This document shows positions 6,491 to 32,310 of a stretch of DNA of 64,000 nucleotides, piece by piece. The DNA is taken from positions 156,345-220,344 of the forward strand of contig CAVYIV010000015.1 of assembly GCA_963768675.1 (NCBI GenBank), in the 5' to 3' direction. The notes beneath the pieces are model-generated. The model made no database searches, was not told where the DNA came from, and was given only the letters and a program-made list of their open reading frames with translations. The position numbers and the translations under genes were made by a program. This DNA comes from an uncultured Chloroflexia bacterium. GTDB lineage: Bacteria; Chloroflexota; Limnocylindria; Limnocylindrales; CSP1-4. Within the stretch, counting starts at the first letter, position 1. Each line of letters starts with the position of its first letter.

Positions 6491-6554
6491 CGGCACCCGC
6501 CGAGTAGCCGCGGCGCCCAACGTTCTCCCGCAGCGGCGGGAGACGCGGACCCGC

Positions 6555-6791
6555 TCAGCGCCGAACGGCAGCGACGTGCCCGCGGACGGATGATGTGGCC
6601 ACGGCGTCAACTCGCTCGGGCGGGGACGGCGGCGAGAGCGCGTCCACCACGTAGTGGACCGGATCGCCCTCCTGGACCCCGGCCGGCCACGGCGCCGGGC
6701 GGCTGTCCGGGTCGGGCCGGCTCCCGACGTGCCAGATCAGCACGCCCCACATCGCCGCGTAGAGCGCCAGGAGCGGGATCCAGGCGGGCAC
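6555..6791 (-). CDS. hypothetical small membrane protein
   Basis: 78-aa ORF with a GTG start and an N-terminal TM helix. No homolog recognised. It sits in a region otherwise devoid of convincing genes. Confidence 0.2.
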   Translation of the reverse strand: MPAWIPLLALYAAMWGVLIWHVGSRPDPDSRPAPWPAGVQEGDPVHYVVDALSPPSPPERVDAVATSSVRGHVAAVRR

Positions 6792-7396
6792 AGGCGGAAC
6801 CTCGAATCGACGTCGATGCTGGCTACGACGCCGAGGTCAACACCAGCAGGGCGATGTAGACCCACGACGACCGCGACCGCCAGGTAGACCCAGAGCGGGA
6901 GGCGACGTCGAGCCGACCGCAGGCGAGGGGCCGCGGTCCCACCACCGCTGTTCAGATCAGGCGCGCCAGCCGCCCCGGGACTGGCCTGGCTGCGGAACGT
7001 GTTGGGAGTTCGCTGGTCACGAAGAGTGTTGGGGCGGACCTCGGGGGAGCCGCCCGGCCGGTACGTCATGCGCCGCCTCTCCCCTGCCGGCCGGAAACGG
7101 CCTGGCTACCACTTAGCGTGCCACTGGAACGCAATGCGTGCAGGCCTCGACGCGCACGCTCGTCGATGGGTCGCGGCTGCACGCCGGATGGACGACGGCC
7201 TAACGGACCATGGCATGTAGATGGTGATGGCACCCGATCTGCGGCCGAACGGCCCTTGAACGCGGGGGGCGACGGGACGATGGTTCAGAAGTCGGGGTGT
7301 CGATGCCAGGACCTGTTGATGCGCGGGTCGATCGGGTCGCCGAACCGCGCAGGGTCGCTGGCGAAGCTGGGCTCGTCGACCCGGTGGAGGCGCACC

Positions 7397-7585
7397 ATGG
7401 CGCTCCAGCACTCGACCCGCGAGCAGAGGGCCGCACTCAACCCGGATTTCCTGCGGGCACTCCTCATCGTGGCCGCGGTCATCGTGGTGATGATCGTCCT
7501 GACCGCGATCGTCGGGGTCGGACAGACTGGCCCCTCCTACCAGATCGTGCCTGACCCAGCCAGCGGTCTCGGCCTTCCCTTCTGA
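7397..7585 (+). CDS. hypothetical small membrane protein
   Basis: 62 aa, MALQHSTREQRAALNPDFLRALLIVAAVIVVMIVLTAIVGV..., with a GGTGGAGG RBS 7 nt upstream of the ATG. Confidence 0.3.
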   Translation: MALQHSTREQRAALNPDFLRALLIVAAVIVVMIVLTAIVGVGQTGPSYQIVPDPASGLGLPF

Positions 7586-7672
7586 GCAGCCGCCTATCCG
7601 GGCGGCTCGACAAGCGCGACGTCCTTCGCCCGGTTCGTTGACATACGCCATGTTTGGCGTCAGGTTGCGGCC

Positions 7673-7897
7673 GTGGACAAGACGACGCTGTACCTGACGC
7701 CGGAGCTTCGACGCCGCCTGCGTGGCGTTGCCCGGCGCAGTAGCCGGCGGCATGCCGACGTGACCCGCTCGGCCCTCGACGCCTACCTCGACCAAGCCGG
7801 CGCGAACCGCCCGCGTTTCATCGGGGCTGGCGAGGATGACACGCTGGACGCCCGAGACACGGAGGCGTGGCTCCGCGAACGGTGGGGTCCTGCTTGA
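7673..7897 (+). CDS. vapB: ribbon-helix-helix (CopG/VapB-type) antitoxin
   Basis: 74 aa. LYLTPELRRRLRGVARRSSRRHADVTRSALDAYLD is a RHH fold signature. Its stop overlaps the start of the downstream PIN gene. Confidence 0.6.
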   Translation: MDKTTLYLTPELRRRLRGVARRSSRRHADVTRSALDAYLDQAGANRPRFIGAGEDDTLDARDTEAWLRERWGPA

Positions 7898-8303
7898 TCT
7901 CGCTCGACACATCCTGGCTCGATGCGCTGCTCAACCGGCGCGATCGGGCCCACCAGGCGGCCGGGCAGGAGCTGGAGAGTGATCCGGGCCGTATCTCGTG
8001 CCGGCGGCGACGCTCGGGGAGCTCACCTTCCTCGTCGAACAGCGGCTGGGACTGCGGGTGCTCGACCTCGTTCTCGGTGACCTCGAGTCCGGTGCTTACA
8101 CGCTCGACTGTGGCGAGGCCGATCTGGCACGCACGCGGCAGCTCGTCGGGCGCTACGCGGACCTGTCTCTCGGATTTGTCGACGCCGCCGTCGTCGCCTG
8201 CGCCGAGGGCAGCGGCGGGCGGGTACTGACATTCGACCTCGGTGACCTCGGGGTCGTGGCGGCCGAGGGGACGATCAGAGTCCTGTCGGCACCGGCCTCG
8301 TAG
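7882..8303 (+). pseudogene. vapC: PIN-domain toxin VapC, disrupted by a 1-nt frameshift near codon 37
   Basis: The N-terminal piece MGSCLISLDTSWLDALLNRRDRAHQAAGQ sits in the frame of ORF 7867..8229 (GTG at 7882). The C-terminal piece ...LTFDLGDLGVVAAEGTIRVLSAP sits in the frame of ORF 7998..8303. The frames switch at about 7990. Confidence 0.6.
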
Positions 8304-8327
8304 GCCGGCCCGCCGCCGCATGTTGAC

Positions 8328-9371
8328 CTAGACGCGCTGGTCGGTGCTTGGCTTCTCCCACAGGTTGACGCCGCTGTCGACGGCGTAGAGGTCGATCTCG
8401 GCCAGCTCGTGGGGCGAGAAGGACAGGTTCGCAAGCGCCGCGACGTTCTCGCGCACCTGCGCGGGTGAGCTTGCCCCGATGAGCGTCGAGGTCACGCGCG
8501 GGTCGCGGAGCACCCAGGCGTAGGCCATCTGGGCCAGGGTCTGCCCGCGTCGAAGGGCGATCGCGTTGAGCCCCCGCACGCGCGCCAGGTTCTGCTCGCT
8601 CAGCATTTCCCGTTCGAACGAGTCGCCGCCGGGGCGATTGATACGCGAATCGGCGGGGATGCCGTCGAGGTACTTGCTCGTCAGGAGCCCCTGCGCGACC
8701 GCCGTGAACGCGATCATGCCGGCGCCGACCTCCTCGAGCGCGTCGAGCAGCTCCGGTTCGACCCACCGGTTCAAAAGGTTATAGGACGGCTGGTGGATCA
8801 GCAGGGGCACGCCCTCCGAGCGAAGGATCGCGGCTGCCTCGCGCGTCTTGGTCGCGGAGTACGACGAGATCCCCACGTAGAGCGCCTTGCCCTGGCGGAC
8901 CGCCGTGGCAAGCGCTCCCATCGTCTCCTCGAGCGGCGTGTCGACGTCAAAGCGGTGCGAGTAGAAGATGTCAAAGTAGTCGACGCCGACGCGACGAAGG
9001 CTCTGGTCGAGGCTCGCGAGGACGTACTTGCGCGAGCCGCCGCCCTGGCCGTATGGCCCCGGCCACATGTCCCAACCGGCCTTGCTGGAGATGATCAGCT
9101 CGTCGCGGTGAGCGGCGAGATCCTCGCGCAGGATGCGCCCGAAGTTGATCTCGGCGCTGCCGTACGGTGGTCCGTAGTTGTTCGCAAGGTCGAAGTGCGT
9201 GATCCCGAGGTCGAAGGCGGTTCGCACGATCTCCCGCTGCGTCGCCATCGGCGTGTAGTCGCCGAAGTTGTGCCACAGGCCCAGGGAGAGCAGCGGAAGC
9301 CGCAGGCCGGTCCTCCCGCAGGCCCGGTACGTCATCACGTCGTAGCGCTCGGGTGCTGATAGATAGGTCAT
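8328..9371 (-). CDS. aldo/keto reductase, YghZ / L-glyceraldehyde-3-phosphate reductase-like (Kv-beta family)
   Basis: 347 aa from ATG 9371, with a GGAGGA RBS. Motifs: MTYRACGRTGLRLPLLSLGLWHNFG, DLANNYGP and SHRFDVDTPLEETMGAL. The upstream part of the 656-aa ORF belongs to a separate gene remnant. Confidence 0.85.
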   Translation of the reverse strand: MTYLSAPERYDVMTYRACGRTGLRLPLLSLGLWHNFGDYTPMATQREIVRTAFDLGITHFDLANNYGPPYGSAEINFGRILREDLAAHRDELIISSKAGWDMWPGPYGQGGGSRKYVLASLDQSLRRVGVDYFDIFYSHRFDVDTPLEETMGALATAVRQGKALYVGISSYSATKTREAAAILRSEGVPLLIHQPSYNLLNRWVEPELLDALEEVGAGMIAFTAVAQGLLTSKYLDGIPADSRINRPGGDSFEREMLSEQNLARVRGLNAIALRRGQTLAQMAYAWVLRDPRVTSTLIGASSPAQVRENVAALANLSFSPHELAEIDLYAVDSGVNLWEKPSTDQRV

Positions 9372-9405: not shown

Positions 9406-10112
9406 TCAGCCCGCTGCGGTCCACTCCAGCCCCAGGCGGGCGATCGTGTCCGGCGTGGGGTTGCCCGTTCGGCCGTCCCAGCCGGCCATCCGGTAGTAGT
9501 CGTCGAGGGCGCCCTCGATCTCCGCGTGGTCGAGCGCGACACCGGCCGTGGGGCCCGTCCCCGCGAGCGGCCGGAACATCTTGGCGGGCAGGCAGTCCTC
9601 GCTGCGTCCAGGCCCTCCCGGGCGTTGACGGTGCGCAGCATGTTGAGGCGCCGCTCGACGATCTCCATGAGCTCGTCGAGGTCGAAGTCGTCCCAGCCCG
9701 TCACGGCCCGCACAAGATCGACCGTCTCCTGCGGCCCGAACAGCGTCCAGGCCGGGCCCCACACGAACTGGCACAGCGAGGCCGTGTCGAGGAACAAGTA
9801 GAACTGCTGGGTCCGGAGCGCGAAGCGGACCTTGTCCGGGCCGAGCGACAGGAACCCCTGCGCGGCGTCGAACCCGAGGAGCTTGAGCCGCTCGAGGGAG
9901 AGATCTGCGGCGCCCTCCTCGATCATCGGGTCGTGCTCGGACGACTGGTGGTCCGCCCCGAACGGGTTCACCGCGTAGACGACCGCGAGCGATCGCTTCG
10001 CCTGGGGCATGTGGCCGGGCGCCTCGGCTCCCTTGACCGTGACGAGCAGGTCGTGGCACTTCCCGATCAGGTCGGCGGCGCGCCGCGATCCGTGCGCCAG
10101 GATGTCGCCGAA
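9406..10112 (-). pseudogene. aldehyde:ferredoxin oxidoreductase (AOR, tungsten-type) C-terminal fragment, truncated and frameshifted
   Basis: GDILAHGSRRAADLIGK...VKGAEAPGHMP...TGWDDFDLDELMEIVERRLNMLRTVNAREGL lies in the ORF 8328..10298 frame. The tail ...DCLPAKMFRPLAGTGPTAGVALDHAEIEGALDDYYRMAGWDGRTGNPTPDTIARLGLEW lies in the ORF 9406..10296 frame. Only about 235 of ~600 aa are present, and the N-terminal W-binding domain is absent. Confidence 0.55.
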
Positions 10113-10367
10113 GCCCTCGCGCCTGGCCGACGTGGAGGATCCGGCCGGTGAACTCGCCTGGCACTCGCCTGCCTCCCATCGGTTGACCTGGGCACGCGCC
10201 CCGGAACCGGCGCCCGGGAGCCCCGGCTGCCGGGAGCCCGAACCCGCGTCCGCGACGCCTCTCTCGCGCATCTTCTTCCACGGCGAGGGCCGACACAACG
10301 GGAACCGGGAGAGCAGGTGGCGGAAGAGCGGGCCGGCCGCGGCGGAAGAGCGGGCGGCGGCGGCGCG

Positions 10368-14012: not shown

Positions 14013-14674
14013 ATGGAACTTGTCGACCAGGTGTTGCACACCGCGGCGGCCGTGCTTGCGAGCGGGGCGATCTCAGGGAACGGGCACGGCAACGTCAGCC
14101 TGCGCGTTCCGGGCGCGGAGGAGATGTACTTCACCTCCGCCTCGTCCCTGAACGGGCTGGGGCCGGACGGCATCGCCCGCGTCGCGCTCGACGGGACGCT
14201 GCTGGAGGGCACCCTGCCTCCATCCAGGGCGCGGTCGTGGCGATGCACACGGCGATGTACCAGGATCGGCCCGACGTCGGCTGCGTGATCCACACGCACT
14301 CGCCGTTCGCGACCGCGTTCGCCGTGGCCAACCGCCCGATCGACTGCTGGATCGAGGCCCTCGCGATGTTCGGGCTGGCCGACGGCGTGCCGGTCGCGGC
14401 CTACGGGCCGCGCGGATCCGAGCAGGCCGTGGGCAACATCCGCGCGGCGGTGCGACCGGGAGTTCCGGCCGTCCTGCTCGCCAACCACGGCGTGCTCGTG
14501 TTCCACCGCACCCCGGACCTGGCCGTCCTCGTCGGCGGGGTGGTCGAGGAGGCCGCCCAGGCGGCGATCAACGCGCTCGCGCTGGGCGGTCCGGTCGAGA
14601 TCGCCGCCGACCTCCGCGCCGCGGCGCTGCAGCGGGCGATGACGTTCGAGACTGCCGGCACGAAGACCGCCTGA
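14013..14674 (+). pseudogene. class II aldolase/adducin-domain protein (FucA / MtnB-like) with one frameshift at ~14225
   Basis: The N-terminal piece NGHGNVSLRVPG...MYFTSASS...LDGTLLEGTLPPS lies in frame 0. The remainder IQGAVVAMHTAMYQDRPDVGCVIHTHSPFATAFA...ANHGVLVFHRT lies in the ORF 13745..14674 frame. Confidence 0.6.
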
Positions 14675-14728
14675 CACGGGCCCGTCGAGGGCGCGGAGGG
14701 CACACCGGGCGTGCCCCGGGGTGCCCGC

Positions 14729-15865
14729 TCAGGCGAGGGCGACTCCTGGTTCCGCCGATGCCTCGACGCGCCCGACGCACCAGGAGGCCACACCGGCGGC
14801 GGAGAACGCCTGCTCGACGGAGGCAACGCGGTCGGGCGCGATCGCGGCCAGCAGCCCGCCGCTCGTCTGCGGGTCGTGGGCCAGCGCGACGCGTGCCCCA
14901 TCGACGCCGGGCGCGACCACCAGGGCGGGCCCACGAACCGGCGGTTGTGGCCGGCACCGTCCGTCTCCAGGCCGGCGGCCGCCAGCGTGAGCGCGCCCGG
15001 CAGCGCCGGCAGTGCCGCCGCCTCGAAGACGAGCCGCGTCCCCGACGCGCGTGCCATCTCCAGCCCGTGCCCAAGGAGCCCGAAGCCGGTGACGTCCGTG
15101 GCGCCGCGAGTCCTGTGGGCGACGAGCACGTCGGCCGCAGCACGGTTCAGCGTGCGCATCGAGGCGATGGCAGCAGCTAGGTCGTCGGGTGCGGTCCGGC
15201 CCTGACGGGCACCCGAGACGAGCATCCCCGTTCCCAACGCCTTGGTGAGCAGAAGCACGTCGCCGGGCCGCGCGCCACCCTTGCGCGAGAAGTCGGTCCG
15301 GGTGCACGAGCCCGATGACGGCCAGCCCGAACTTCGGCTCGGGATCCCGGATCGTGTGGCCGCCGGCGAGCATCCCGCCGGCCTCGCGCACGACCCCCGC
15401 GGCGCCCTCGACGATGGCGGCCATCGCCGCCGGGTCCAGTGCCTCGGGGAACGCCGCCACCGAGAGCGCGAAGAGCACGCGCCCGCCCATCGCGAAGACG
15501 TCCGAGCAGGCGTTGGCGGCGGCGATCGCCCCGTAGGTCCGGGCGTCGTCCACGAGCGGAGGGAAGAAGTCGACCGTCCCGATGACGGCGAGCTCGTCGG
15601 TGAGCCGGTACACGGCCGCGTCATCGGGCGGATCCAGGCCGGCGATCAGGTCGACCGGCGCCGCGCCCGAGATCGCGCCGAGCCCGGCGAGCACGCCGGC
15701 CAGCACGTCGGCGCCGAGCTTCGCGGCGCAGCCCCCGCAATCGGTCAGGTCGGTCAGGCGCAGGCGCGGAGGGGCGAACCCGGAAGCCGCTGCGAGGGGC
15801 GCCCCGCACTCGATGCACAGCGGGCGGGTCGCATCGTTGTCGGCGCCGCAGCTTGCACAGATCAC
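14729..15865 (-). pseudogene. selD: selenide, water dikinase (selenophosphate synthetase) with two frameshifts
   Basis: The N-terminus has a Zn-ribbon and LTDLTDCGGCAAKLG (the GCGCK-type loop). The middle GDVLLLTKALGTGMLVSGA...ATDVTGFGLLGHGLEMARASG lies in the ORF 14401..15624 frame. The C-terminal TSGGLLAAIAPDRVASV is back in the ORF 14729..15865 frame. Confidence 0.7.
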
Positions 15866-16687
15866 CGGAGACTCCCCATCGCAGGCCAGGTGCCGAACAG
15901 TAGATCACGGAGTGCGGGACGTCGGCAGCTGCGGCGTCGCTGACGGCGGTGCCGCCCGCGACTGCGCCGCCGGTGATGGCTCAGGGGAGGGTGATCGCGC
16001 GGTCGACCCTGGAGTGCGAGGCGAGGATCGCGGCGAGCTCGGCCGCGAGGCCCGCCATGCGCCGGTTTCGGGCTCGTCGCCACCATCACGACCCGTGCCC
16101 CTGCCGGGATACCCTTGAGCCCGCCATCCGGGTGGAGCAGCACGCCCGCCGCGCCTCGGATCGTCAGGAGGTCGTCGGGATGCGCGTCCGATGAGACCCG
16201 CCAGGCGTTCGGGCCGGTGGGCAGACCGCGGAGATCGGCCCGCCGATGGCGGCCATGGAGGCGACCACGACGACCGTCGTGGAGGCGCTCGGGATGACCG
16301 GCTCGTGGTCGGCCGGAGCCTTGATCGCCATCCGGTGGGCACCGTCGGCTTCGACGATCACGTATGCAGCGCTCGTCTCGGCGAAGAGGCGGTCGATCGC
16401 CTCCGGCGGCGGGCCGCCGAGCTTGCCCTGCCCACGATCCACGGCGACGAACAGCGGGAGTCCGGGCACAAGGCCGCCTCGACGACGGCCGGCTCGGCGG
16501 ACCAGCAGATCGGTTTGCCCGGCTGGTCGGCTCCCACCCTGGTGGTCGTCGTGAGGATGACCCGGGCGCCGGCCGCAGCGAGGTCGCGGCCGAGGGTGAA
16601 CAGGATGGTCGACTTGCCACCGGCGCCGACGATCGACACCAGCTCGCGTTCGCCGAGCCCGAGCCGTTCCGCCAGGGAGAGGGTCAT
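15862..16687 (-). pseudogene. yqeC: selenium-dependent molybdenum hydroxylase system accessory protein YqeC, with two frameshifts
   Basis: ELVSIVGAGGKSTILFTLGRDLAAAGARVILTTTTRV lies in the ORF 16358..16687 frame. VPLFVAVDRGQGKLGGPPPEAIDRLFAETSAAYVIVEADGAHRMAIKAPADHEPVIP lies in the ORF 16164..16469 frame. The C-terminal GVLLHPDGGLKGIPAGARVVMV lies in the ORF 15862..16620 frame. Its stop overlaps the selD start (ATGA). Confidence 0.65.
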
Positions 16688-17491
16688 CGGCTCCCGTCGT
16701 TCAGCCAGGCCAGGATCGCCTCGAGCACGCCGCCGCCGACGGCGAGCGCCTTGTCCGAGACGTGGGCGATGGCGTCACGCTCCGATCGGGGATCGACGTC
16801 GCCGATCTTGAGCCCCACGGTCACGCGACCGGGAGCGATCATCCCGCGGACAATCCCGCCGATCGTGGCCCGGACCGGGGAATCGCCGATCGCCCCCAGT
16901 GGCTGGCCGGCCGTGACGATCTCGCCGAAGCCAACGCTCCAGGTGAGGTCTCCGTCCGCGTGCGCACGGAGGACGCGCTCGGCCGAGGCGCCGCCGAGCT
17001 CGCCCGGAACGCCCGTGTTGGGGAACGCGGGCCCGTTCCAGATCACGCTCCCGAGGCGGTACCCGCGCATCGTCTCGACTACCGCGTGAGCAGTCCACCC
17101 CTGCGACGAAGCCGGGGCCGAGCCCGACGACGAACGGCGCCTGATCGAGGCGGGTGTCGAGCGCCTCCTTGGCGACCCGTGCGTCGACGAGCACGGACAA
17201 CGGCACCGGGAACTCCGGCACGTCCGCGGAGACCAGCACCGGCACGGCGCCGCGGCGTGCCGTCGCCACCGCCTCCTCCGGCGTTCCGACGAGGACGCCC
17301 TCGATCCCGTCGATCTCGACCCGGCCGTCCGAGACCGCCGAGGAGAACGCGACGGTCCGGCGGACCGTCAGTGGCCGCGCGAGGTCGAGGACGACAACGG
17401 GAAACCCCGCCCGTCGGAGGCGCCAGGCGACGCCGGACCCGATGTCCCCGCCGCCGCGGACGACGACGAGATGCCCGGAGAAGAGGCTCAC
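16684..17491 (-). pseudogene. yqeB: selenium-dependent molybdenum hydroxylase system protein YqeB, with one +1 insertion at ~17090
   Basis: HLVVVRGGGDIGSGVAWRLRRAGFPVVVLDLARPLTVRRTVAF...GLGPGFVAGVDC lies in the ORF 16775..17491 frame. Then (an extra T shifts the frame) HAVVETMRGYRLGSVIWNGPAFPNTGVPGE...GLKIGDVDPR...SDKALAVGGGVLEAIL lies in the ORF 16684..17070 frame. Confidence 0.7.
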
Positions 17492-18279
17492 GAGGGGGCG
17501 CGGCGGTTCGAGGCGATGACCTCGGACATGATCGACACCGCGAGCTCCTCGACGGTCTCCGCGCCGATCTGGAGCCCGATGGGATTATGGATGCGCTCCA
17601 GCGTCCCCGACGTGACATCGGACGCGGCGAGGGCCTGCCTGGTCGCCTCCCAGCGGCGCCTGCTTCCCATCACCCCGATGTAGCGGGCCGGGGTCTCGAG
17701 CAGGAGCGGCACGATCTCGGCGTCGATGTCGTAGCTCCGCGTGACCGCGACCACCGAGGTGTCCTCCGTGATCGGGAATGCCGCCAGGGCCGCGGCGACG
17801 CTGCCGCCGAAACGGACGTCGGCGAGCGGCATCGCCTCGGCCGTGACCAGCTCGGTCCGCTCGTCGACCGCGACCGTGCGGTAGCCCAGCCAGTGGGCGA
17901 GGTCCACGACGGCCTTGCCGACGTGGCCCGCTCCGATGACGTACACCGTGTGCGGACTCATGTAGGGCTCAAGGTAGACGGTCATGGTGCCGCCGCACAC
18001 GCCCGGATCGCCGCGCTCGGGGTCCTGCAGCTGGTAGCTCCGGAGCGCCGTTTCGTTGCTCTGCATCGCCTCGAGCGCGTCGAGCCGGATCGCGTCCTCG
18101 ACCTTGCCTCCGCCGATCGTCCCGACGGTGGACCCATCGGCGTGGACGACCATCTTCGTCCCCGCATGGCGAGGCACGGAACCCTGCGTGGCAACGATGG
18201 TGGCGAGCACGACGCGCTGCCCGCCGCTGAGCGCCTCCGAGAGCTCCGCGAGGATGCGCTCGGGCCGGGTGACGCTCAC
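17488..18279 (-). CDS. xdhC: XdhC/CoxI-family molybdenum cofactor insertion chaperone
   Basis: Has the XdhC N-terminal domain (VVLATIVATQGSVPRHAGTKMVVHADGSTVGTIGGG) and a Rossmann-like C-terminal domain (TVYVIGAGHVGKAV). The GTG start overlaps the upstream TGA (GTGA). Confidence 0.75.
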   Translation of the reverse strand: MSVTRPERILAELSEALSGGQRVVLATIVATQGSVPRHAGTKMVVHADGSTVGTIGGGKVEDAIRLDALEAMQSNETALRSYQLQDPERGDPGVCGGTMTVYLEPYMSPHTVYVIGAGHVGKAVVDLAHWLGYRTVAVDERTELVTAEAMPLADVRFGGSVAAALAAFPITEDTSVVAVTRSYDIDAEIVPLLLETPARYIGVMGSRRRWEATRQALAASDVTSGTLERIHNPIGLQIGAETVEELAVSIMSEVIASNRRAPS

Positions 18280-21171
18280 GACGCCTGAAGCGCCCGCCAG
18301 ACCCGTTCCGGCGTGAACGGGATGTTGTTGATCCGGGCCCCGGTTGCGTACGCGATGGCGTTCCGGATGGCGGGCGCCGCGCCGTCCAGCGGGATCTCCG
18401 CGATCGCCTTGGCACCGAACGGCCCGCTGGTCTCCATGGTCTGCACCAGGATGGCTTCCAGCCGCGGCATCTCGTCGGCCCGGTAGATCTTGTACGGCCC
18501 GAACGCGGCGTTGACCATCCGCCCGTCGACGTCGTACGCCATCTCCTCGCAATGGGCGTAGCCGAGGGCCTGGACCATGCCGCCTTCGACCTGACCGGAC
18601 GCGGTGACCGGGTTGATCGGCACGCCGCAATCGACAGCCATGACGAGCTGTTGGACCGTGACCTGGCCGGTTTCGATGTCCACCTCGACCTCGGCGAACT
18701 GCGCCGCGTATGGTGGCGGCGATGCCGGCGACACGTACGAGGCGGTCGCCATGATCTGGTGCTGGCCCTGCTGGTGGAGGGACGACAGGGCGATCTCCCC
18801 AAGGGTCACCGACCGGCCGTCCGCCGACCAGGCGGCCCGGTCGTGGAGCTCGACCGAGGCGTTATCGACGCCGAGCAGGAGCGCGGCGCGGTCGATGATC
18901 TGGCCGCGGACCTGCTCCGCTGCGCGCTTGACGGCGGTTCCCGAGATGTAGGTCGTGCTCGAGGCGTAGGCCCCGGTGTCGAAGGGCGTGAGGTCGGTGT
19001 CGGACGAGTAGACGACGATGTCCTCGGTGCCCACGCCGACCACCTCTGCCGCGATCTGCGCGAGCACGGTGTCCGAGCCCGTCCCGAGGTCCGTCGCGCC
19101 AACGAGGAGGTTGAACGAGCCGTCGTCGTTGATCTTGAGGCTGGCGCCACCCATGTCGAGGCCGGGAATCGCGGTGCCGTGCATCGCCATCGCAAATCCG
19201 AGCCCGCGCCGGACGTGGGGCCGGTCAGCCGGCTGCCTCCAGGCAGGGTCGTCACGCCGCTGCCAGCCGATCGCCCGCTTGCCTTGGAGCACGGCCTCCT
19301 CGAGGCCGCTCGACATGATGATCGGCACGCTGCCCGCGCCCGGGTCGCCCTCGCCGAGCTGGGGCGCGATGTCGATCGGGTCGCCGACCTTCGTCCAGTT
19401 GCGTCGACGGAACTCGATCGGGTCCATCCCGATGGCTGCCGCGATGTCCTCCATGTGGGCCTCGAGCGCGAACAGCGCCTGCGGGGCGCCGTAGCCGCGG
19501 TAGGCGCCCGGCACGGGGATGTTCGTGTACGCGACTTGCAGTCGAAGCGCTTGAGCGGGCTGTTGTACGAGCTGAGGCCGCGCATGCCCGACACCATCTG
19601 GACGGTCAGCCCGTGGGTCCCGTAGGCGCCGGTGTTCGCGACGATCCGCATCTCCTGCGCCGTGAGCTTCGCGTCCGCGTCGACGCCGGTCCGGAAGGTG
19701 ATCGTCTGGGGATGCCGGGTCCGGGAGCGAGATGAACTCCTCCTCCCGTGTCAGCTCGAGCCGGACGGGACGGCCGGTCGCGATCGTGAGGTGGGCGACG
19801 ATGTCCTCGATGAGCATTTCCTGCTTCGCCCCGAAGCCGCCGCCGATCCGCGGCTTGATGACCCGGATCTGGCGCACCGGGAAGCCCGAGGAGCGGCGCA
19901 ATCATGCGCCGGACGTGGAACGGGACCTGCGTCGATGACGTAATCTCCAGTCGGTCGTCGCTGTCCCAGCGCGCGATCGCGATGTGCGTCTCGATCGGCG
20001 TCTGCTGCACCTGGTGCACGCGGAAGGTCTGCTCGAAGACGCGCTCGGCCGCGGCGAACCCCTTCTCCACGTCGCCGGTCTCGGCCTGGATGTGGTGGAC
20101 GATGTTGTGGCCCGCGTCGTGGGCGCCGTCGAGGTCGGGCTCGTCGTGGATCACCGGGGCGCCGTCGAGGATCGCCTCGTTCTCGTCGAAGACCGCGGGG
20201 AGTACCTCGTAGGTCACCTTGATCAGGTCGAGCGCCGCGAGCGCGATCTCCTCGGTGTCGGCCGCGACGGCCGCGACCCGGTCGCCGACGTAGCGCACCT
20301 TGTCGTCGAAGCTCACCTGGTCGTAGGGCCTAGGGTTCGGGTAGCTCTGGCCGCCCGACGCGTAGCGCACCCTCCGCACGTTCCCATGGTGGAGCACGGC
20401 GTGGACACCGGGGAGCACCCTTGCTGCGGTGTCGTCGATCGACACGATGCGGGCATGGGCGTACGGGCTGTAGAGGACTTTGGCGATCAGCGTCCCCGTG
20501 AGGTCCCGGTCGTCCGTGAACGCGGGGTTTCCCTTGGCCAGCTTCACCGCGTCGGTCTTCGTCTCGGCATGGCCCACGACGCGCGTGGCGGGCACGTCCT
20601 CGCTGAGGACGACCCGTGGCGAGATCGGTCCGAGCCCGTCTCGATCGTGGTGCGGCGCGTCCGATCCCGTGAGCCGGTCGAGATGCGCCACCTCGACGTT
20701 GTCGGGGGCCTCCCCGCGTATGATCGCGGCCGCCCGCAGGACCGCGTGCACCGGGCGCAGGTAGCCGGTTTCCCGGTCGAGGATCCCCGAGAGCGCAGAC
20801 CTGACGTCGGCTTCCGTCGGCGTGGGGTTCTTCTCGATCAGCGCCTTCGCCGCGAGGATCATCGCGGGAGTCGAGTAGCCGGACTGGATCGCGCCGGTGT
20901 CGATGAAGGCCTGTTGGATCGGGTGCATCCCCCCGGGGACGGCGAGACCTTCGACCGTCTCGATCTCGTGCCCCTCGGCCTGGGCAGCCAACATCACGTC
21001 CCCGGACACCAGCCGGCCGTCGACGAGCACCGCCGCCGCGCCGGTCTCGCCCGTGCCGGAGCCATACCGCACGCTGTGGAAGCCGGCGCGCCTCAGCACC
21101 GCCCGCAGCGACTCGTGCGGCTCGCAGGTCAGCGTTCGGCGTGCCCCGTTGATGTTGAGCGTGATCGTCAC
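18276..21171 (-). pseudogene. xanthine dehydrogenase-family molybdopterin enzyme: fused cysteine-less [2Fe-2S]-like domain plus Mo-binding large subunit, with one frameshift at ~19880
   Basis: The GTG at 21171 overlaps the stop of the FAD-subunit gene, and a GGAGGGGG RBS precedes it. The first ~155 aa have the 2Fe-2S-subunit fold (ITLNINGARRTLTCEPHESLRAVLRR...ETVEGL...NPTPTEADVRSALSGIL), but every Cys ligand is substituted: RYGSGTGETGAAAV, AIQSGYSTP and ILDRETGY. Then come Mo-subunit blocks (LYSPYAHARIVSID, RIGGGFGAKQ). The frame switches from ORF 19606..21909 to ORF 18276..19901. Confidence 0.65.
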
Positions 21172-21909
21172 GCCTGATCGCCCCCTCCGATTGTGGTCAG
21201 CGCGCGTGCCGTGAGCACCGCCGCGAGATGGGCCCGGTAGACAGACGAGCCGCGGAAGTCCGCGGGCGGATCCAGCTCCGCGATTTGCTCCGGATCCACG
21301 AGCACCGGGTGGGCGGCGACCCCCGACATGGCAGTCCGCGTCGTGCCGGCGGCGTCGCGGTGAGCCACGACCATCACGATGGGACGGTCCATCGGCGTGC
21401 GAGCGGTTCCGTGCGCCGCGGCCTGACCGCCCACGGGGACCGTGACGCTCGTGATCACGGCTCCCGCGAGCACGTGTGGGTCGCCCAGGACCGCCTCGAG
21501 CGGGATGTCGGCGATCGAGCCGGGCCGCGCGATGCTGACCCGGGCGCCGAAGGCGAGAAGCCCGGTGAGCAGCGGGCTCTCCGGGTCGGCCGCCCCGACG
21601 GTGCCGCCCACGGTCGCCGCCTCGCGGATGGTGCCCGGCGCCTCGAGACGCGCCAGATCGCGAAGCGTCCCGGGGACCAGGCCCGAGTCGACGACCTCCT
21701 GGAGTCGGGTCATCGCCCCCAGGCGGACCCATCCGCTGCCCGGTCTCGATGCCGCCGAGGTGCAGCGCCTGCAGGTCGACCGCCGCGGCGGACGTCCGGC
21801 CGGGACGTGCGTTGAGGGTCGTTCCGCCGGCAAGGACGACAGCGTCGGGGAGCGCAAGTAGCGTGAGCGCCTCTTCGAGCGTGAGCGGCCGGTAGTACTT
21901 CATGTTCAC
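21168..21909 (-). pseudogene. xanthine dehydrogenase-family FAD-binding subunit (CoxM/XdhB-like) with one frameshift at ~21740
   Basis: The N-terminal piece MKYYRPLTLEEALTLLALPDAVVLAGGTTL lies in the ORF 19606..21909 frame. The remainder GWVRLGAMTRLQEVVDS...GTIREAATVGGTVGAAD...FRGSSVYRAHLAAVL lies in the ORF 21168..21857 frame. Confidence 0.6.
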
Positions 21910-29797: not shown

Positions 29798-29820
29798 GTT
29801 TCCAGCCCTCCTGTCTGTGT

Positions 29821-30226
29821 TCAGGCGGTCACGACCGTCAGGCCAAGCGCGCGCGCAGCCTGCGCCTGGCGGAGATCGAACGTCACGAAGCCGAACCCGG
29901 GTGCGGAGACTCGTTGCGCGGCCGCGAGATGGAGGGCATCGAGGGTTCGCACGCCGGTGGTCTCCGCGATCGAGGCCGCCGATTCGCAGGTTGCCTCGTC
30001 GAGCTCGATGATCGAGAAAGAGCGCAGATCGTCGGCGAACGCGGCTCGGGCGGCGACGAGGTCGCGTCCCGAGAGCAGGCGAGCGAGGTTGCGGCGAACC
30101 TCAACGATCGTATGGCGGGCAGTGAGCAGCTCGCCGTCGGCTCGCAGCAACGCGTCCGCGGCGGCCGAGTCGGCCTCCTCGACGTACCGCTTGAGGAGGG
30201 CGCTCGAAATCGACGTAGGCGCTCAC
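29821..30226 (-). pseudogene. vapC: PIN-domain toxin VapC with a +1 insertion at codon ~7
   Basis: The GTG at 30226 overlaps the antitoxin TGA. VSAYVD is followed by an extra T in a TTT run, and then SSALLKRYVEEADSAAADALLRADGELLTARHTIVEVRRN... continues in the ORF 29821..30150 frame to ...FVTFDLRQAQAARALGL. Confidence 0.6.
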
Positions 30227-30483
30227 TCGCCGCGATCCTCGGCCAGCGCGTCGAGCACCCGCCTGGACGCCATCGACCGGCGCACCGGACCAAGCGGCGA
30301 ACCGGTGCCCGGCGTGATCCAACCTGCGCGAATCCCGTCCTCGATGCGCGCGCGACCGGGCACCGGACCGAGCACCGCCTTCGGCCGTCCGCGGTCGGTT
30401 ACCCGCAGCACCTCTCCCCGCTCTGCCCGATCCAGGTACTCGGAGAGGCGCTGTTTCAGCTCCCGGATCCCGACATCAGCCAT
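30223..30483 (-). CDS. Phd/YefM-type antitoxin
   Basis: The 86-aa N-terminus MADVGIRELKQRLSEYLDRAERGEVLRVTDRGRPKAVL is characteristic of Phd/YefM. It sits immediately upstream of vapC. Confidence 0.6.
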   Translation of the reverse strand: MADVGIRELKQRLSEYLDRAERGEVLRVTDRGRPKAVLGPVPGRARIEDGIRAGWITPGTGSPLGPVRRSMASRRVLDALAEDRGE

Positions 30484-30613
30484 GTAGGCACATTACCACA
30501 GCGATGTGTCTACATCACGGAGAGGCCGCCTGTGCTCGCGCTGCGCTCGCCAGGCTCTAGGGATGCGGCCGATGACCCTTGCCCGAGGCCGGGGACTTCA
30601 CCGGGGAACGTCG

Positions 30614-30877
30614 CTACCACAGCCGGATGAGCAGCACCACGGCGATCAGGACCCCCGCCACGCCCGTCGCGGCCGCGGCCCGCGGTCCCAAGCGGACCCT
30701 GGCGACCGCGACGAAGACCGTGACGATCACCGCCGCAGCGAGGCGGGCAACGATCGGCGAGGCGACGTGGGACGGTGAGCTGCGATTGATGATGATGCCG
30801 GCCGCCGCGATCGCCACGATGAGGACGACGGAAACGAGCCAGAGCCTCCTGTTCCCAGGACTCTTGATCCATGTCAT
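30614..30877 (-). CDS. small two-TM membrane protein, paralog 1
   Basis: 87 aa: MTWIKSPGNRRLWLVSVVLIVAIAAAG...AAAATGVAGVLIAVVLLIRLW. Similar to the adjacent ORF. Confidence 0.4.
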   Translation of the reverse strand: MTWIKSPGNRRLWLVSVVLIVAIAAAGIIINRSSPSHVASPIVARLAAAVIVTVFVAVARVRLGPRAAAATGVAGVLIAVVLLIRLW

Positions 30878-30891
30878 GAGGGCACGGCCTC

Positions 30892-31179
30892 TCAGCGCCG
30901 CGTACGAGAGATCGGGGGGATGCGTGCGTAGCCTGTCAGGTTGAGCACCACGATCGCGACCAGGACCCCCGCCACGCCGGTCACGGCCGCGGCCAGCGGC
31001 CCGGCCGCGAGCTTGGCGGCGACCACAAGGGCCGTCACGGCCACGACCACCACGAGCCGTACGGCGAGGACGGGACCGAGGCCGGGCTGAGGCCGCTGCG
31101 GGCGCCAGGTACGAGCGACCACGGCGCCGACCGCCACCATGGCGACGATGATGACAAGGGTGGCGAGCCAGAGCTCCAC
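30892..31179 (-). CDS. small two-TM membrane protein, paralog 2
   Basis: 95 aa: MELWLATLVIIVAMVAVG...AAAVTGVAGVLVAIVVLNL. Shares its TM2 motif (AAA(A/V)TGVAGVL) with the neighbouring ORF. Confidence 0.4.
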   Translation of the reverse strand: MELWLATLVIIVAMVAVGAVVARTWRPQRPQPGLGPVLAVRLVVVVAVTALVVAAKLAAGPLAAAVTGVAGVLVAIVVLNLTGYARIPPISRTRR

Positions 31180-31318
31180 GCGACACGACCTTTCTAGGCA
31201 AGCATCGCACCTCGCCTGTCGCCGTCAATGACGTGCCGTCGTGCGGCGGGCGGGAACGTCGGCGGCAACGCGCCGTCGCAATCAGCCACAGCCGTGGACT
31301 ACTTCCTGCGGGACGGGC

Positions 31319-31738
31319 TCAGAGCCATTTCTCCATGAAGACAAGCTCACGGCGCACGTAACCGACCCGGTCGTAGAAGCCCGCGACCTCCACGTTGTCC
31401 GGCTCGACGTGGAGGTTGATCTTGGCACAGCCGTGTGTCCGCAGGCGGGCCTCCACCTCGGCCACGAGGCGACGGCCCACGCCGGAGCCCTGCCGCGCCG
31501 GCGCCACGGCAAGATGGTGGAGCCAGCCGCGACGGCCATCGAACGTTCCGAGCACCGCGCCCATGATCTGGCCCTCGGCTTCCGCCACGACGAAGAGGTC
31601 GGCGGCATGGTCGAGCGTTGCCGCCAGCGCAGCACGGGAGTCGGAAACGGTAAGCCTGAGCCCGACCGCCTGCCACAGTGCCACCACCTCCTCGTAGTCG
31701 GGCCAGTCGAATGTGCGGATGGTGACCGTAGGCGGCAT
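31319..31738 (-). CDS. GNAT family N-acetyltransferase
   Basis: HLAVAPARQGSGVGRRLV is acetyl-CoA-binding motif A. The start was placed at the second Met. Confidence 0.65.
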   Translation of the reverse strand: MPPTVTIRTFDWPDYEEVVALWQAVGLRLTVSDSRAALAATLDHAADLFVVAEAEGQIMGAVLGTFDGRRGWLHHLAVAPARQGSGVGRRLVAEVEARLRTHGCAKINLHVEPDNVEVAGFYDRVGYVRRELVFMEKWL

Positions 31739-31964
31739 CGCGGCCAGTGTATCGGGATGCCACGCCGGCCCCAACAGCGTTCAAGCGGAGCCAGCCAGGT
31801 TGCCCGGGCAGAGGAGAGTGCCGACAAGGCGGAGGTCTGCGACCACCTCGTCCCGCAGCGGCTCGATCGCATCCACATCGGGGCGGCCACGGAGAAGACG
31901 CGAACATGCCGGGGTTCCCGTACCGCTCGCTGGCCTCGTCGGGGGCGGGAGGCATGCCTGCTCC

Positions 31965-31994
31965 TATACTCCCCGTCTTCGCACTGGGGGGCGT
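31965..31994 (+). promoter_or_regulatory. conserved promoter/leader motif copy B: TATACTCCCCGTCTTCGCACTGGGGGGCGT
   Basis: 76 nt upstream of the 89-aa ORF start. 27/30 identical to copy A. Confidence 0.4.
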
Positions 31995-32040
31995 TCCAGC
32001 CATCAGGCTGTCGAGACGTGCCTCCCCAAGGGGGGCAGAA

Positions 32041-32310
32041 ATGCCGAAGATCGTGGTCACTGCGGCGGTCAAGGATGTCGAGGCGTGGCTGAAGTACAAG
32101 CCGCAGCTCATCGCCCAGCTGTCCGCCGTCGCGTCGGACGGGGCCAGCTACGTCGCGGCGGATGGCAGCAACCGCGTCGCCAGCACGTGGGACGTCCCCG
32201 ACCTGGAGGCATTCCAGGCAGCCCAGAGCGCACCCGCCTCTCCCGAGATGGCGGCGGCGATGGAAGCGTACGGGATGATCCCGCCGATGACGGTCTACGT
32301 CGAGAAGTAG
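32041..32310 (+). CDS. hypothetical small protein (89 aa)
   Basis: MPKIVVTAAVKDVEAWLKYKPQLIAQLSAV...MTVYVEK, preceded by an AAGGGGGG RBS and the conserved TATACT leader motif. Confidence 0.45.
   Translation: MPKIVVTAAVKDVEAWLKYKPQLIAQLSAVASDGASYVAADGSNRVASTWDVPDLEAFQAAQSAPASPEMAAAMEAYGMIPPMTVYVEK

What the first reader, a model, noticed from the sequence alone, without database searches (positions are those of the whole stretch)
20700..21171. Cysteine-less [2Fe-2S]-type domain fused to a molybdenum hydroxylase large subunit
The N-terminal ~155 aa of the first XDH-family enzyme keep the fold-defining blocks of the small FeS subunit (NINGARRTL, LRxxGF, ETVEGL, SALSGIL..TGY). All eight cluster-ligating cysteines are replaced: GCGEGECGACTV becomes GSGTGETGAAAV, QCGFCTPG becomes QSGYSTP, and NLCRCTGY becomes ILDRETGY. 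Neutral decay would not remove exactly the ligands while leaving the scaffold intact. The sister enzyme at 49023 has all cysteines. Either this paralog has lost electron transfer to FAD and gained another role, or the locus is a recently inactivated copy. The same operon carries the selenium-cofactor genes yqeB, yqeC and selD.
Basis: seen in the sequence. Interest (0 to 1): 0.7.

Follow-up and report, generated by a model that had tools for sequence, protein, structure and literature searches.

The report
Iron-sulfur-free relic in molybdenum hydroxylase
A molybdenum enzyme gene here keeps the folded module that normally holds two iron-sulfur clusters but has none of the eight cysteines that bind them; hundreds of related genomes and E. 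coli XdhD share this state, so it is a selected feature rather than decay, and it leaves open how electrons reach the molybdenum.

Summary
On the minus strand, 21171-20701 encodes a [2Fe-2S]-type domain fused to a xanthine-oxidase-family molybdenum subunit. All eight ligand cysteines are replaced (S38 T43 A46 D58 / S97 S100 D132 E134).

This is not local decay:
- All 80 best relatives from species-representative genomes lack the cysteines, and nearly all are intact ORFs of about 964 aa.
- dN/dS of the domain is 0.09-0.21, the same as the catalytic part.
- The AlphaFold2 model superposes on real FeS subunits (TM 0.9-0.96).
- E. coli K-12 XdhD, recently shown with YgfM to be an NADH-dependent urate reductase, also lacks all eight.

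Cysteine-bearing relatives are closer to each cysteine-less lineage than the two lineages are to each other, so the loss happened more than once. The FAD-proximal cluster always goes first.

The FAD subunit gene (motifs intact) and xdhC, yqeB, yqeC and selD stay in the operon.

In this window the gene has three 1-nt frame breaks. About 18 occur across the window and 12 across this operon and the adjacent aldolase gene (14.2-21.8 kb). They are all single-base, insertion-biased and enriched near CCCGG/CCGGG, which points to long-read assembly error.

How electrons pass between FAD and molybdenum without clusters is unresolved. I found no discussion of it in the searchable literature.

The parts
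20701..21171 (-). Cysteine-less [2Fe-2S]-like domain (residues 1-157): an N-terminal beta-grasp half and a four-helix half.
   Evidence: Translation. Pfam Fer2_2 matches residues 72-144 at E = 1.6e-21, with no PF00111 hit. AF2 pLDDT is 76-97 over residues 1-155. Foldseek TM is 0.89-0.96 and rmsd 1.1-1.9 A to CoxS-type FeS subunits 8uem_C, 4zoh_C, 3hrd_D.
20998..21060 (-). Former ligand positions of the plant-type (FAD-proximal) cluster: S38 (21058-21060), T43 (21043-21045), A46 (21034-21036), D58 (20998-21000).
   Evidence: Alignment to cysteine-bearing modules. In 53 clade members: S 50, T 52, A 36 or S 10, D 43 or E 9.
20770..20883 (-). Former ligand positions of the molybdenum-proximal cluster: S97 (20881-20883), S100 (20872-20874), D132 (20776-20778), E134 (20770-20772).
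   Evidence: In 53 clade members: S97 52, S100 47, D132 53, E134 53. Codons were checked by hand.
18276..21171 (-). Whole XdhD-like gene (FeS-like domain, hammerhead domain and two Moco-binding domains). It is 964 aa after frame correction. As assembled it is broken by +1 nt at about 19880, +1 nt at 19728 and -1 nt at 19534.
   Evidence: Three-frame translation. Alignment to intact relatives L002 and L008-L011. Corrected protein: Pfam Fer2_2 + Ald_Xan_dh_C + MoCoBD_1 + MoCoBD_2. Best NCBIfam hit is TIGR03313 at 706.6 bits, below the cut-off of 1101.9. The closest relatives are intact ORFs of exactly 964 aa.
21168..21909 (-). YgfM-like FAD-binding subunit gene. Its stop overlaps the XdhD-like start (GTGA). 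There is one +1 nt frame break at about 21742.
   Evidence: Corrected 244-aa protein: PF00941 at E = 1.3e-22; TIGR03312 at 79.9 bits (cut-off 241.5). The (A/G)GGT and R-N-x-A-T-I/V-G-G motifs are conserved in about 70 of 74 relatives.
17488..18283 (-). XdhC-family Moco insertion chaperone, intact.
   Evidence: PF02625 + PF13478; NF045664 at 226 bits, TIGR02964 at 111.5 bits, both below their curated cut-offs (350 and 161.6).
16684..17494 (-). yqeB (selenium-dependent Moco maturation), with one +1 nt frame break at 17089.
   Evidence: Frame-corrected protein scores 290.1 bits on TIGR03309 (cut-off 220). Indel located.
15960..16693 (-). yqeC, with frame breaks at 16469, 16224, 16187 and about 16058.
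   Evidence: The joined first two pieces score 126 bits on TIGR03172 (cut-off 73.05). Indels located.
14729..15898 (-). selD (selenophosphate synthetase), with frame breaks at 15287 and about 14930. It has a Cys-rich N-terminal extension.
   Evidence: Frame-corrected protein scores 308.4 bits on TIGR00476 (cut-off 125). Indels located.

Best explanation
The region encodes the N-terminal module of an XdhD-like, selenium-dependent molybdenum hydroxylase. In this enzyme the two [2Fe-2S] clusters of the xanthine-oxidase family have been given up, but the protein module that held them has been kept.

Shown:
- All eight ligands are gone and replaced by a near-fixed set of residues (S/T/A/D and S/S/D/E).
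- The fold is retained.
- The domain evolves under the same purifying selection as the catalytic domains.
- The state is shared by a large clade of Acidimicrobiia/Actinomycetota and Chloroflexota genomes and, independently, by the E. coli XdhD lineage.
- Among relatives, the FAD-proximal cluster is always lost first.
- The FAD subunit, XdhC, YqeB and (where checked) YqeC stay linked to the gene.

Inferred:
- The module now works as a structural scaffold. It forms part of the Moco pocket and the docking surface for the YgfM-like FAD subunit.
- It is not an electron wire, so the textbook Moco-FeS I-FeS II-FAD chain does not operate.
- By analogy with E. coli XdhD-YgfM (urate to 2,8-dioxopurine with NADH), the enzyme probably hydroxylates or dehydroxylates an N-heterocycle at a Se-containing Moco. 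Reducing equivalents would be exchanged by a route that does not pass through this domain's former cluster sites.
- The three frame breaks in this copy, and the others nearby, are most likely long-read consensus errors rather than biology.
For: - Ligand replacement and scaffold retention.
- Fold: AF2 mean pLDDT 83.9, residues 1-155 at 76-97. Foldseek TM 0.89-0.96 to CoxS-type subunits. The whole model is closest to the fused Desulfovibrio aldehyde oxidoreductases 1sij and 1dgj.
- Selection: dN/dS 0.09-0.21 for the domain against 0.11-0.22 for residues 156-425, in six pairwise comparisons.
- Breadth: 373 relatives in species-representative genomes. All 80 best are cysteine-less, and about 62 of 66 fully covered genes are intact ORFs of 963-1008 aa.
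- First 120 protein hits: 29 have 8/8 Cys, 9 keep only the Mo-proximal four, 10 keep one, and about 71 keep none. None keeps only the FAD-proximal four.
- E. coli XdhD has DADS|SNSD at the eight positions. In its lineage 68 of 109 sequences have no cysteine and 33 have eight.
- Independent loss: the window protein is 57% identical to the all-Cys P0062 but 38% identical to EcXdhD. EcXdhD is 52-55% identical to the all-Cys P0138 and P0140.
- No compensating aromatic or other clade-specific residues appear in the domain.
- FAD subunit retention and motifs.
- Se accessory genes.
- E. coli function: PMC12507026 and PMC12990295.
- Frame breaks look like errors. Twelve window-specific indels lie between 14.2 and 21.8 kb, all 1 nt, 8 insertions to 4 deletions. 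About 18 frame changes affect at least 11 genes, including unrelated ones. Change points are enriched near CCCGG/CCGGG (9/18 within 15 nt against 23% expected) and GACTGC (3/18 against 0.9%). A long-read contig, L003, has an extra base at the same CCCGG site and many split genes.
Against: - The scaffold role is an inference; no structure or biochemistry exists for this clade.
- Retention of a FAD subunit with intact FAD motifs argues that FAD still communicates with something. E. coli XdhD-YgfM is reported to use NADH. That is hard to reconcile with a roughly 30 A FAD-Moco separation in the canonical architecture (my own recollection of the bovine XDH and CODH structures; not computed here).
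- D132 and E134 are invariant in this clade, which could mean more than packing. The E. coli lineage is variable at the same positions (S/I/N/D/H and D/A/S/G).
- The frame breaks are concentrated: about 12 of about 18 lie in roughly 10 kb of selenium-pathway genes, while 7.4 kb (46.5-53.9 kb) has none.
- Most long-read relatives in GTDB have the gene intact. A real, very recent inactivation of this particular copy therefore cannot be excluded.
- The NJ tree has no support values.
Confidence: 0.7

Rival explanations
1. This particular copy, and the selenium-dependent operon around it, is a real, recently inactivated pseudogene cluster. The organism is losing the Se-cofactor trait.
For: - The XdhD-like gene has three frame breaks with a net +1 shift, so no full-length product is possible as assembled.
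- ygfM-like, yqeB, yqeC, selD, ssnA and the TIGR03311 XDH are also broken.
- About 12 of about 18 breaks fall in roughly 10 kb of Se-pathway genes, while the XdhAB-like pair and ygfK (7.4 kb) are intact.
- A truly truncated AOR remnant shows that the genome does carry pseudogenes.
- Most long-read relatives have the gene intact.
Against: - All 12 located events are single-base with an insertion excess (8:4). There are no multi-base deletions and no in-frame stops inside the true frames.
- Breaks also hit unrelated genes: an aldolase, a 3-hydroxyacyl-CoA dehydrogenase and a membrane protein.
- Breaks are enriched near CCCGG/CCGGG and GACTGC. The same CCCGG site is affected in the independent long-read contig L003.
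- dN/dS and branch length of the window copy are normal.
- Even if true, this would not explain the cysteine-less state, which predates the copy.
Confidence: 0.15
2. The former cluster sites bind something else. For example, a mononuclear hard metal ion could be held by S97/S100/D132/E134, and perhaps another by S38/T43/D58. It could have a structural or even a redox role.
For: - The replacements are oxygen donors.
- They are almost invariant in this clade (D132 and E134 in 53/53).
- D and E at the last two positions recur in separately placed groups: STAD|SSDE, DTDQ|SNDE and P0098 DSDG|SCDE.
- The glycine-rich loops that wrapped the clusters are kept.
Against: - A46 cannot ligate.
- The E. 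coli lineage has S/I/N/H and D/A/S/G at the last two positions, so no common metal site is conserved across cysteine-less lineages.
- There is no direct evidence for any metal.
- Carboxylates could simply replace the cluster by hydrogen bonding, for example to the pterin amino group. From memory, that group contacts a cluster-ligating Cys in the Desulfovibrio gigas enzyme.
Confidence: 0.12
3. The domain still carries [2Fe-2S] clusters, using non-cysteine ligands or cysteines from elsewhere.
For: - Single Asp, His or Ser ligands occur in some FeS proteins (own knowledge).
- NCBIfam names the family 'Mo/Fe-S-binding subunit'.
Against: - No ligand cysteine is left at any of the eight positions in about 140 sequences and 80 genomic loci.
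- One position is Ala.
- The only Cys in the domain, C16, is not conserved in E. coli XdhD.
- The YgfM-like subunit has no cysteine at all (sequence used).
- To my knowledge no [2Fe-2S] site without any Cys ligand is known.
Confidence: 0.02
4. The cysteine-less codons are sequencing artefacts.
For: The assembly clearly contains indel errors.
Against: - Eight separate codons would have to be changed by substitutions.
- The same residues are found in independent short-read and long-read assemblies.
Confidence: 0.01

Closest known systems
E. coli XdhD (YgfN, b2881) with YgfM: NCBIfam TIGR03313/TIGR03312. Reported in 2025 as an NADH-dependent urate reductase (urate to 2,8-dioxopurine).
   Same: - Same Pfam architecture: Fer2_2 + Ald_Xan_dh_C + MoCoBD_1 + MoCoBD_2, with no PF00111 hit.
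- All eight FeS ligand cysteines are absent.
- A short FAD subunit is encoded immediately upstream.
- yqeB and yqeC are in the neighbourhood.
- It is the best-scoring NCBIfam family for the window protein.
   Different: - Only 38% identity over 430 aa.
- Scores are below the curated cut-offs: 706.6 against 1101.9, and 79.9 against 241.5.
- The replacement residues differ (DADS|SNSD against STAD|SSDE).
- Cysteine-bearing relatives lie between the two lineages, so the loss is convergent.
- In this window it is not next to ygfK and ssnA, which sit 30 kb away beside a different XDH.
- The substrate is unknown.
Desulfovibrio gigas / D. desulfuricans aldehyde oxidoreductase (MOP; PDB 1sij, 1vlb, 1dgj)
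   Same: - One polypeptide with the FeS module fused to the Moco domains.
- Best sequence and fold match for the whole 430-aa model.
   Different: - MOP binds both [2Fe-2S] clusters through the eight cysteines and has no FAD subunit.
- Identity is 28-29%.
Selenium-dependent XDH / 2,8-dioxopurine dehydrogenase of clostridia (TIGR03311; C. sporogenes XdhAC)
   Same: - A fused FeS-Moco protein that depends on SelD, YqeB and YqeC (bioRxiv 10.1101/2025.04.24.650524).
- A member of this family is present in the same window at 57654-54977.
   Different: - It keeps all eight cysteines.
- It has no FAD subunit.
- It does not use NAD(P)H.
Small FeS subunits of the family (CoxS 8uem_C and 1n60_A, glyceraldehyde oxidoreductase 4zoh_C, nicotinate dehydrogenase 3hrd_D)
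   Same: Same two-subdomain fold: TM 0.89-0.96, rmsd 1.1-1.9 A, 37-45% identity.
   Different: They are separate polypeptides, and all bind two clusters.

Membership tests
Xanthine oxidase / molybdenum hydroxylase family | Hammerhead domain plus two Moco-binding domains | tested here: met
   PF01315 at 2.5e-25, PF02738 at 1.5e-82 and PF20256 at 7.3e-75 on the frame-corrected protein.
Xanthine oxidase / molybdenum hydroxylase family | Active-site signatures (GGGFGxKQ loop and the C-terminal catalytic Glu) | tested here: met
   RIGGGFGAKQE and GPFGAKAIAEIP are read directly in the translation. Their equivalence to the bovine catalytic residues rests on my own knowledge, not on a structural test.
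Xanthine oxidase / molybdenum hydroxylase family | Two [2Fe-2S] clusters bound by eight conserved cysteines | tested here: not met
   0 of 8.
Xanthine oxidase / molybdenum hydroxylase family | FAD-binding subunit or domain | tested here: met
   The upstream gene matches PF00941 at 1.3e-22. FAD motifs are conserved in relatives. Actual FAD binding was not tested.
TIGR03313 (XdhD/YgfN, 'Mo/Fe-S-binding subunit') | Whole-protein score at or above the curated cut-off of 1101.9 bits | tested here: not met
   706.6 bits. This is the best family, but NF043082 XdhA follows closely at 679 bits. E. coli XdhD scores 2122.8.
TIGR03313 (XdhD/YgfN, 'Mo/Fe-S-binding subunit') | Partner FAD subunit of family TIGR03312 (cut-off 241.5 bits) | tested here: not met
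   79.9 bits. E. coli YgfM scores 489.7.
TIGR03313 (XdhD/YgfN, 'Mo/Fe-S-binding subunit') | Adjacency to ygfK and ssnA (reductive urate pathway cluster) | tested here: inconclusive
   ygfK (TIGR03315, 853.8 bits against a cut-off of 835.3) and ssnA are in the window. They lie 30 kb away in an operon with a TIGR03311 XDH.
TIGR03313 (XdhD/YgfN, 'Mo/Fe-S-binding subunit') | Urate to 2,8-dioxopurine activity | not testable with these tools
   Known only for E. coli XdhD-YgfM (PMC12507026).
Selenium-dependent molybdenum hydroxylase system (Haft and Self 2008) | Co-located yqeB, yqeC and selD | tested here: met
   After frame correction: TIGR03309 at 290.1 bits (cut-off 220), TIGR03172 at 126 (cut-off 73) and TIGR00476 at 308.4 (cut-off 125). 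All lie downstream on the same strand. yqeB follows the gene in 36 of 46 relatives.
Selenium-dependent molybdenum hydroxylase system (Haft and Self 2008) | Labile selenium in the active enzyme | not testable with these tools
   Requires biochemistry.

The most novel reading that the evidence does not exclude
XdhD-type enzymes, both this Actinomycetota/Chloroflexota clade and the E. coli lineage, may be a distinct mechanistic class of the xanthine-oxidase family. They would contain only FAD and a Se-Moco. The internal FeS wire has been discarded repeatedly and in a fixed order, FAD-proximal cluster first. Either both half-reactions take place at the molybdenum (a transhydroxylase-like ping-pong between two heterocycles), or FAD and Moco communicate through a new geometry or partner. 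The recurrent loss would then reflect selection, for example for iron economy or oxygen tolerance, rather than drift.
Probability: 0.3. Interest if true: 0.8.

Novelty: new variant of a known kind. Interest (0 to 1): 0.55.

Why it matters
Textbook descriptions of the xanthine-oxidase family put two [2Fe-2S] clusters between the molybdenum cofactor and FAD. Here a large, conserved and apparently functional set of enzymes has no way to bind them, yet keeps the FAD subunit.

The set includes E. coli XdhD, which performs the first step of the recently discovered gut urate-degradation pathway of interest for gout.

If confirmed biochemically, three things follow:
- The electron path of these enzymes has to be rethought.
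- The family name 'Mo/Fe-S-binding subunit' is misleading.
- Engineering or assaying these enzymes (choice of electron donor, FeS-assembly load, oxygen sensitivity) should take this into account.

The graded series of relatives (8, 4, 1 and 0 cysteines) offers a natural experiment on how a redox chain is dismantled.

Tried and rejected
1. Selenocysteine or programmed frameshifting as the reason why none of the 120 best protein hits exceeded about 755 aa. Rejected: the same ceiling appears for the 956-aa E. coli XdhD, so it is a property of the search. Genomic loci show intact ORFs of about 964 aa, and close short-read relatives read through all three sites in frame.

2. The idea that the FAD subunit is present only in cysteine-less forms, as the E. 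coli versus Clostridium contrast suggests. Rejected: the all-Cys relative P0109 has it directly upstream.

3. Compensating aromatic relay residues in the domain. None were found.

4. A universal acidic pair at the last two ligand positions. Rejected: it holds in this clade but not in the E. coli lineage.

5. The look-up of encoding contigs on the window's own product (P0001) found nothing, so the sample of origin is unknown.

6. One literature search was too generic and gave nothing. Targeted searches found no paper that mentions missing cysteines in XdhD. Subscription-only literature was not searchable.

7. My first regex test for upstream FAD genes was too strict. It was replaced by tblastn.

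8. Rfam and ARAGORN found only tRNA-Pro in the window, and nothing in this locus.
Full report
**What is there.** The window is 69-74% G+C. The finding lies on the minus strand. A GTG at 21171 overlaps the stop codon of the upstream gene (GTGA) and opens a frame that reads VTITLNINGARRTLTCEPHESLRAVLRRAGFHSVRYGSGTGETGAAAVLVDG...AIQSGYSTPAMIL...SGILDRETGYLRPV. Pfam finds Fer2_2 (residues 72-144, E = 1.6e-21), then the hammerhead domain and the first Moco-binding domain. I aligned the domain to the two cysteine-bearing FeS modules in the same window: 49023-50441 (+) and 57654-57328 (-). The eight ligand positions are S38, T43, A46, D58 and S97, S100, D132, E134.

**Gene structure and assembly quality.**
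- Downstream of the domain the gene changes frame three times.
- Against intact relatives at about 84% nucleotide identity (L008-L011) and against L002, the window has +1 nt at about 19880, +1 nt at 19728 and -1 nt at 19534.
- After correction the protein is 964 aa, exactly the length of the intact ORFs in the closest genomes.
- The same comparison finds 12 window-specific single-base indels between 14.2 and 21.8 kb. They hit the FAD-subunit gene, yqeB, yqeC, selD and a neighbouring aldolase gene.
- A GC3-based frame segmentation plus translation finds about 18 frame changes in at least 11 genes across the window. Some affected genes are unrelated to this pathway. Fumarase, phosphoglucomutase, the XdhAB-like pair, ygfK, the glutamine synthetases and others are intact.
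- All located events are 1 nt, with 8 insertions to 4 deletions.
- Change points are enriched near CCCGG/CCGGG (9 of 18 within 15 nt against 23% expected) and GACTGC (3 of 18 against 0.9%).
- An independent long-read contig, L003 (Flye-style name), carries an extra base at the same CCCGG site and many split genes.
- I read this as long-read consensus error, at about 0.8 probability. The clustering of breaks in selenium-pathway genes, and the fact that most long-read relatives are intact, leave room for a real recent inactivation of this copy.

**The cysteine-less state is conserved and selected.**
- Among the 120 best protein relatives, 29 have all eight cysteines and one has seven. Nine keep only the four of the Mo-proximal cluster, ten keep a single one, and about 71 have none. 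None keeps only the FAD-proximal four.
- In 53 members of the window's clade the replacements are nearly fixed: S38 50, T43 52, A46 36 (S 10), D58 43 (E 9), S97 52, S100 47, D132 53, E134 53. Only two other positions in the domain distinguish cysteine-less from cysteine-bearing relatives.
- Fourteen scaffold positions in the domain, including the glycines of the cluster loops, are invariant in both classes.
- Nei-Gojobori dN/dS is 0.09-0.21 for the domain and 0.11-0.22 for residues 156-425. The window lineage is no more divergent from the more distant relatives than its closest relative is.
- A scan of one genome per species found 373 relatives. The 80 best are 61-88% identical and come from Acidimicrobiia/Actinomycetota, Chloroflexia, Anaerolineae and Caldilineae MAGs. 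All are cysteine-less, and about 62 of 66 fully covered genes are single ORFs of 963-1008 aa.

**Fold.** AlphaFold2, run on residues 1-430 with a 66-sequence alignment, gives a mean pLDDT of 83.9. Residues 1-155 score 76-97, and the dips fall at the three former cluster loops. Foldseek places the domain on authentic FeS subunits: 8uem_C at TM 0.96 and rmsd 1.1 A, plus 4zoh_C, 3hrd_D, 1rm6_C and 1n60_A. The whole model is closest to the fused Desulfovibrio aldehyde oxidoreductases 1sij and 1dgj (the sequence search agrees). No structure of an XdhD-type protein appears among the solved chains searched.

**Relation to E. coli XdhD.**
- The best NCBIfam family is TIGR03313, whose founding member is E. 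coli XdhD/YgfN. The upstream gene best matches TIGR03312 (YgfM).
- I translated b2881 from MG1655. It too lacks all eight cysteines (RNSDDGFGFAGSDAIIF, VQSGYNDP, LFSRDAGW).
- In the E. coli lineage, 68 of 109 complete N-termini have no ligand cysteine and 33 have all eight.
- The window protein is only 38% identical to EcXdhD. It scores below the curated cut-offs: 706.6 against 1101.9, and its partner 79.9 against 241.5. I therefore call it XdhD-like and do not file it as a member.
- Each cysteine-less lineage is closer to cysteine-bearing proteins than to the other. The window protein is 57% identical to P0062; EcXdhD is 52-55% identical to P0138 and P0140. The replacement signatures also differ. 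The loss therefore happened at least twice.
- A rough NJ tree suggests three or four losses, with cluster-I-only forms nested in or next to each series (no support values).

**What is known about the family.**
- Haft and Self (PMC2276186) linked ygfK, ssnA, ygfM, ygfN, yqeB and yqeC to selenium-dependent molybdenum hydroxylases.
- In 2025, E. coli XdhD co-purified with a protein of about 30 kDa, presumed to be YgfM. With NADH it converted urate to 2,8-dioxopurine. YgfK, SsnA and others complete a reductive uricolytic pathway (PMC12507026; commentary PMC12990295).
- The clostridial counterpart XdhAC has FeS domains, needs selenium and does not use NAD(P)H (bioRxiv 10.1101/2025.04.24.650524).
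- None of these texts mentions cysteines or [2Fe-2S] in XdhD, and targeted searches found nothing else. Subscription-only literature could not be searched.

**Context in the window and in relatives.**
- The operon reads, on the minus strand: ygfM-like (21909-21168), XdhD-like (21171-18276), xdhC (18283-17488), yqeB (17494-16684), yqeC (16693 to about 15960) and selD (15898 to about 14729). After frame correction, YqeB, YqeC and SelD pass their curated cut-offs.
- In relatives, the FAD gene lies within 250 nt upstream in about 68 of 75 loci. xdhC follows in 35 of 46 and yqeB in 36 of 46.
- The FAD-binding signatures (A/G)GGT and R-N-x-A-T-I/V-G-G are conserved in about 70 of 74 relatives.
- The FAD gene is also present next to all-Cys relatives (L005, in a Chloroflexota-type uricolytic cluster with a luciferase-like gene) and near intermediate forms. 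Its presence does not track the cysteine state.
- Elsewhere the window carries a second, cysteine-bearing Se-dependent XDH (TIGR03311) in an operon with ssnA and an intact ygfK. It also carries a conventional XdhAB-like pair.

**How it most likely works.**
- Shown: the clusters cannot be bound, the fold and the FAD partner are kept, and selection is strong.
- Inferred: the module is now a structural part of the enzyme, serving as Moco pocket and FAD-subunit dock. The usual Moco-FeS I-FeS II-FAD wire is not used.
- From my recollection of the bovine XDH and CODH structures, FAD and Moco are about 30 A apart, bridged by the two clusters in steps of 8-15 A. Without the clusters that gap exceeds the roughly 14 A limit for physiological tunnelling.
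- The order of loss, FAD-proximal cluster first, fits a scenario in which FAD-to-Mo wiring was abandoned first and the orphaned second cluster followed.
- Remaining options are: (a) both half-reactions at the molybdenum; (b) a different FAD-Moco geometry or partner; (c) a new ligand in the former sites. I cannot discriminate between them with these tools.

**Verdict.**
- The 'recent pseudogene' reading is wrong for the domain, although this copy's frame breaks remain to be checked against reads.
- The feature is a conserved variant shared, convergently, with E. coli XdhD.
- The gene family is known. The cluster-free state and its ordered, repeated origin appear undocumented, and they pose a concrete, testable mechanistic question.

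Noticed in passing
window 14221-21742 and elsewhere (about 9604, 24606, 25235, 26109, 27941, 54107, 54237, 56229, 57327): There are about 18 single-base frame breaks in at least 11 genes. Twelve were located precisely against relatives. All are 1 nt, insertions outnumber deletions, and they are enriched near CCCGG/CCGGG and GACTGC. This is probably long-read consensus error, so any gene call in this window should be frame-checked.
   Followed up: partly
window 57654-50485 (-): A second selenium-type operon. It holds a fused FeS-Moco XDH of family TIGR03311 with all eight cysteines (three frame pieces summing to about 909 bits), then ssnA (at least 2 breaks, first ~54 profile positions not found), then an intact ygfK (TIGR03315, 853.8 bits). 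This looks like the clostridial-type 2,8-dioxopurine module. The genome therefore has both a cluster-bearing and a cluster-free Se-dependent hydroxylase.
   Followed up: partly
window 46528-50441 (+): An intact conventional XDH pair: a Mo subunit (46528-49026) followed by an XdhA-type FeS+FAD small subunit (49023-50441, TIGR02963-like, 312 bits, below the cut-off of 467).
   Followed up: yes
window about 9406-10160 (-): Only the C-terminal part of a tungsten-type aldehyde:ferredoxin oxidoreductase is present (PF01314 positions 174-328 of 385), with a frame break near 9604. A Nudix gene occupies the place of the missing N-terminal part. This is likely a true gene remnant.
   Followed up: partly
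E. coli K-12 L001:21317-24187 and NCBIfam TIGR03313: The curated family name is 'Mo/Fe-S-binding subunit' and the K-12 annotation says 'Fe-S binding subunit'. Yet XdhD has none of the eight ligand cysteines, and about two thirds of its close relatives have none either.
   Followed up: yes
Homologous-protein output: No hit longer than about 755 aa was returned, even for a query from the 956-aa E. coli XdhD. The hit lists are therefore enriched in fragments and frame-shifted calls. Lengths from that tool should not be read as gene integrity.
   Followed up: yes
L005 (ERZ25039495 contig_50333) 1300-8674: An all-Cys relative sits in a cluster with two amidohydrolases, a luciferase-like (F420-type) oxidoreductase and a FAD subunit. 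This matches the Chloroflexota variant of the uricolytic cluster described in PMC12507026.
   Followed up: no
L003 7610-9198: In one cysteine-less relative, a nicotinate phosphoribosyltransferase gene lies directly upstream of the FAD subunit gene. This may hint at a pyridine or nicotinate-type substrate for part of the clade.
   Followed up: no
window 15840-15898 (-): SelD carries a Cys-rich N-terminal extension (CASCGADNDATRPLCIECG) resembling a zinc ribbon, ahead of the normal SelD core.
   Followed up: no
window 43612-43688 (-), 43781-46678: tRNA-Pro(CGG) lies next to an apparently intact three-gene set that I take, from reading the translations only, to be AmmeMemoRadiSam-like (AMMECR1-like, radical SAM, MEMO-like). 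No family scan was run on it.
   Followed up: no
window 33621-34187 (-), 36029-38988: A MazF/PemK-like toxin with an RHH antitoxin, and a KaiC-like ATPase flanked by two response-regulator genes. These calls rest on reading the translations only; no family scan was run.
   Followed up: no
window 6486-8028, 29800-32041, 34188-36028, 39348-41291, 42025-43783: These stretches have weaker GC3 periodicity and lower G+C (0.67-0.70). The simple coding model did not assign them to a frame. They may be foreign or non-coding segments.
   Followed up: no
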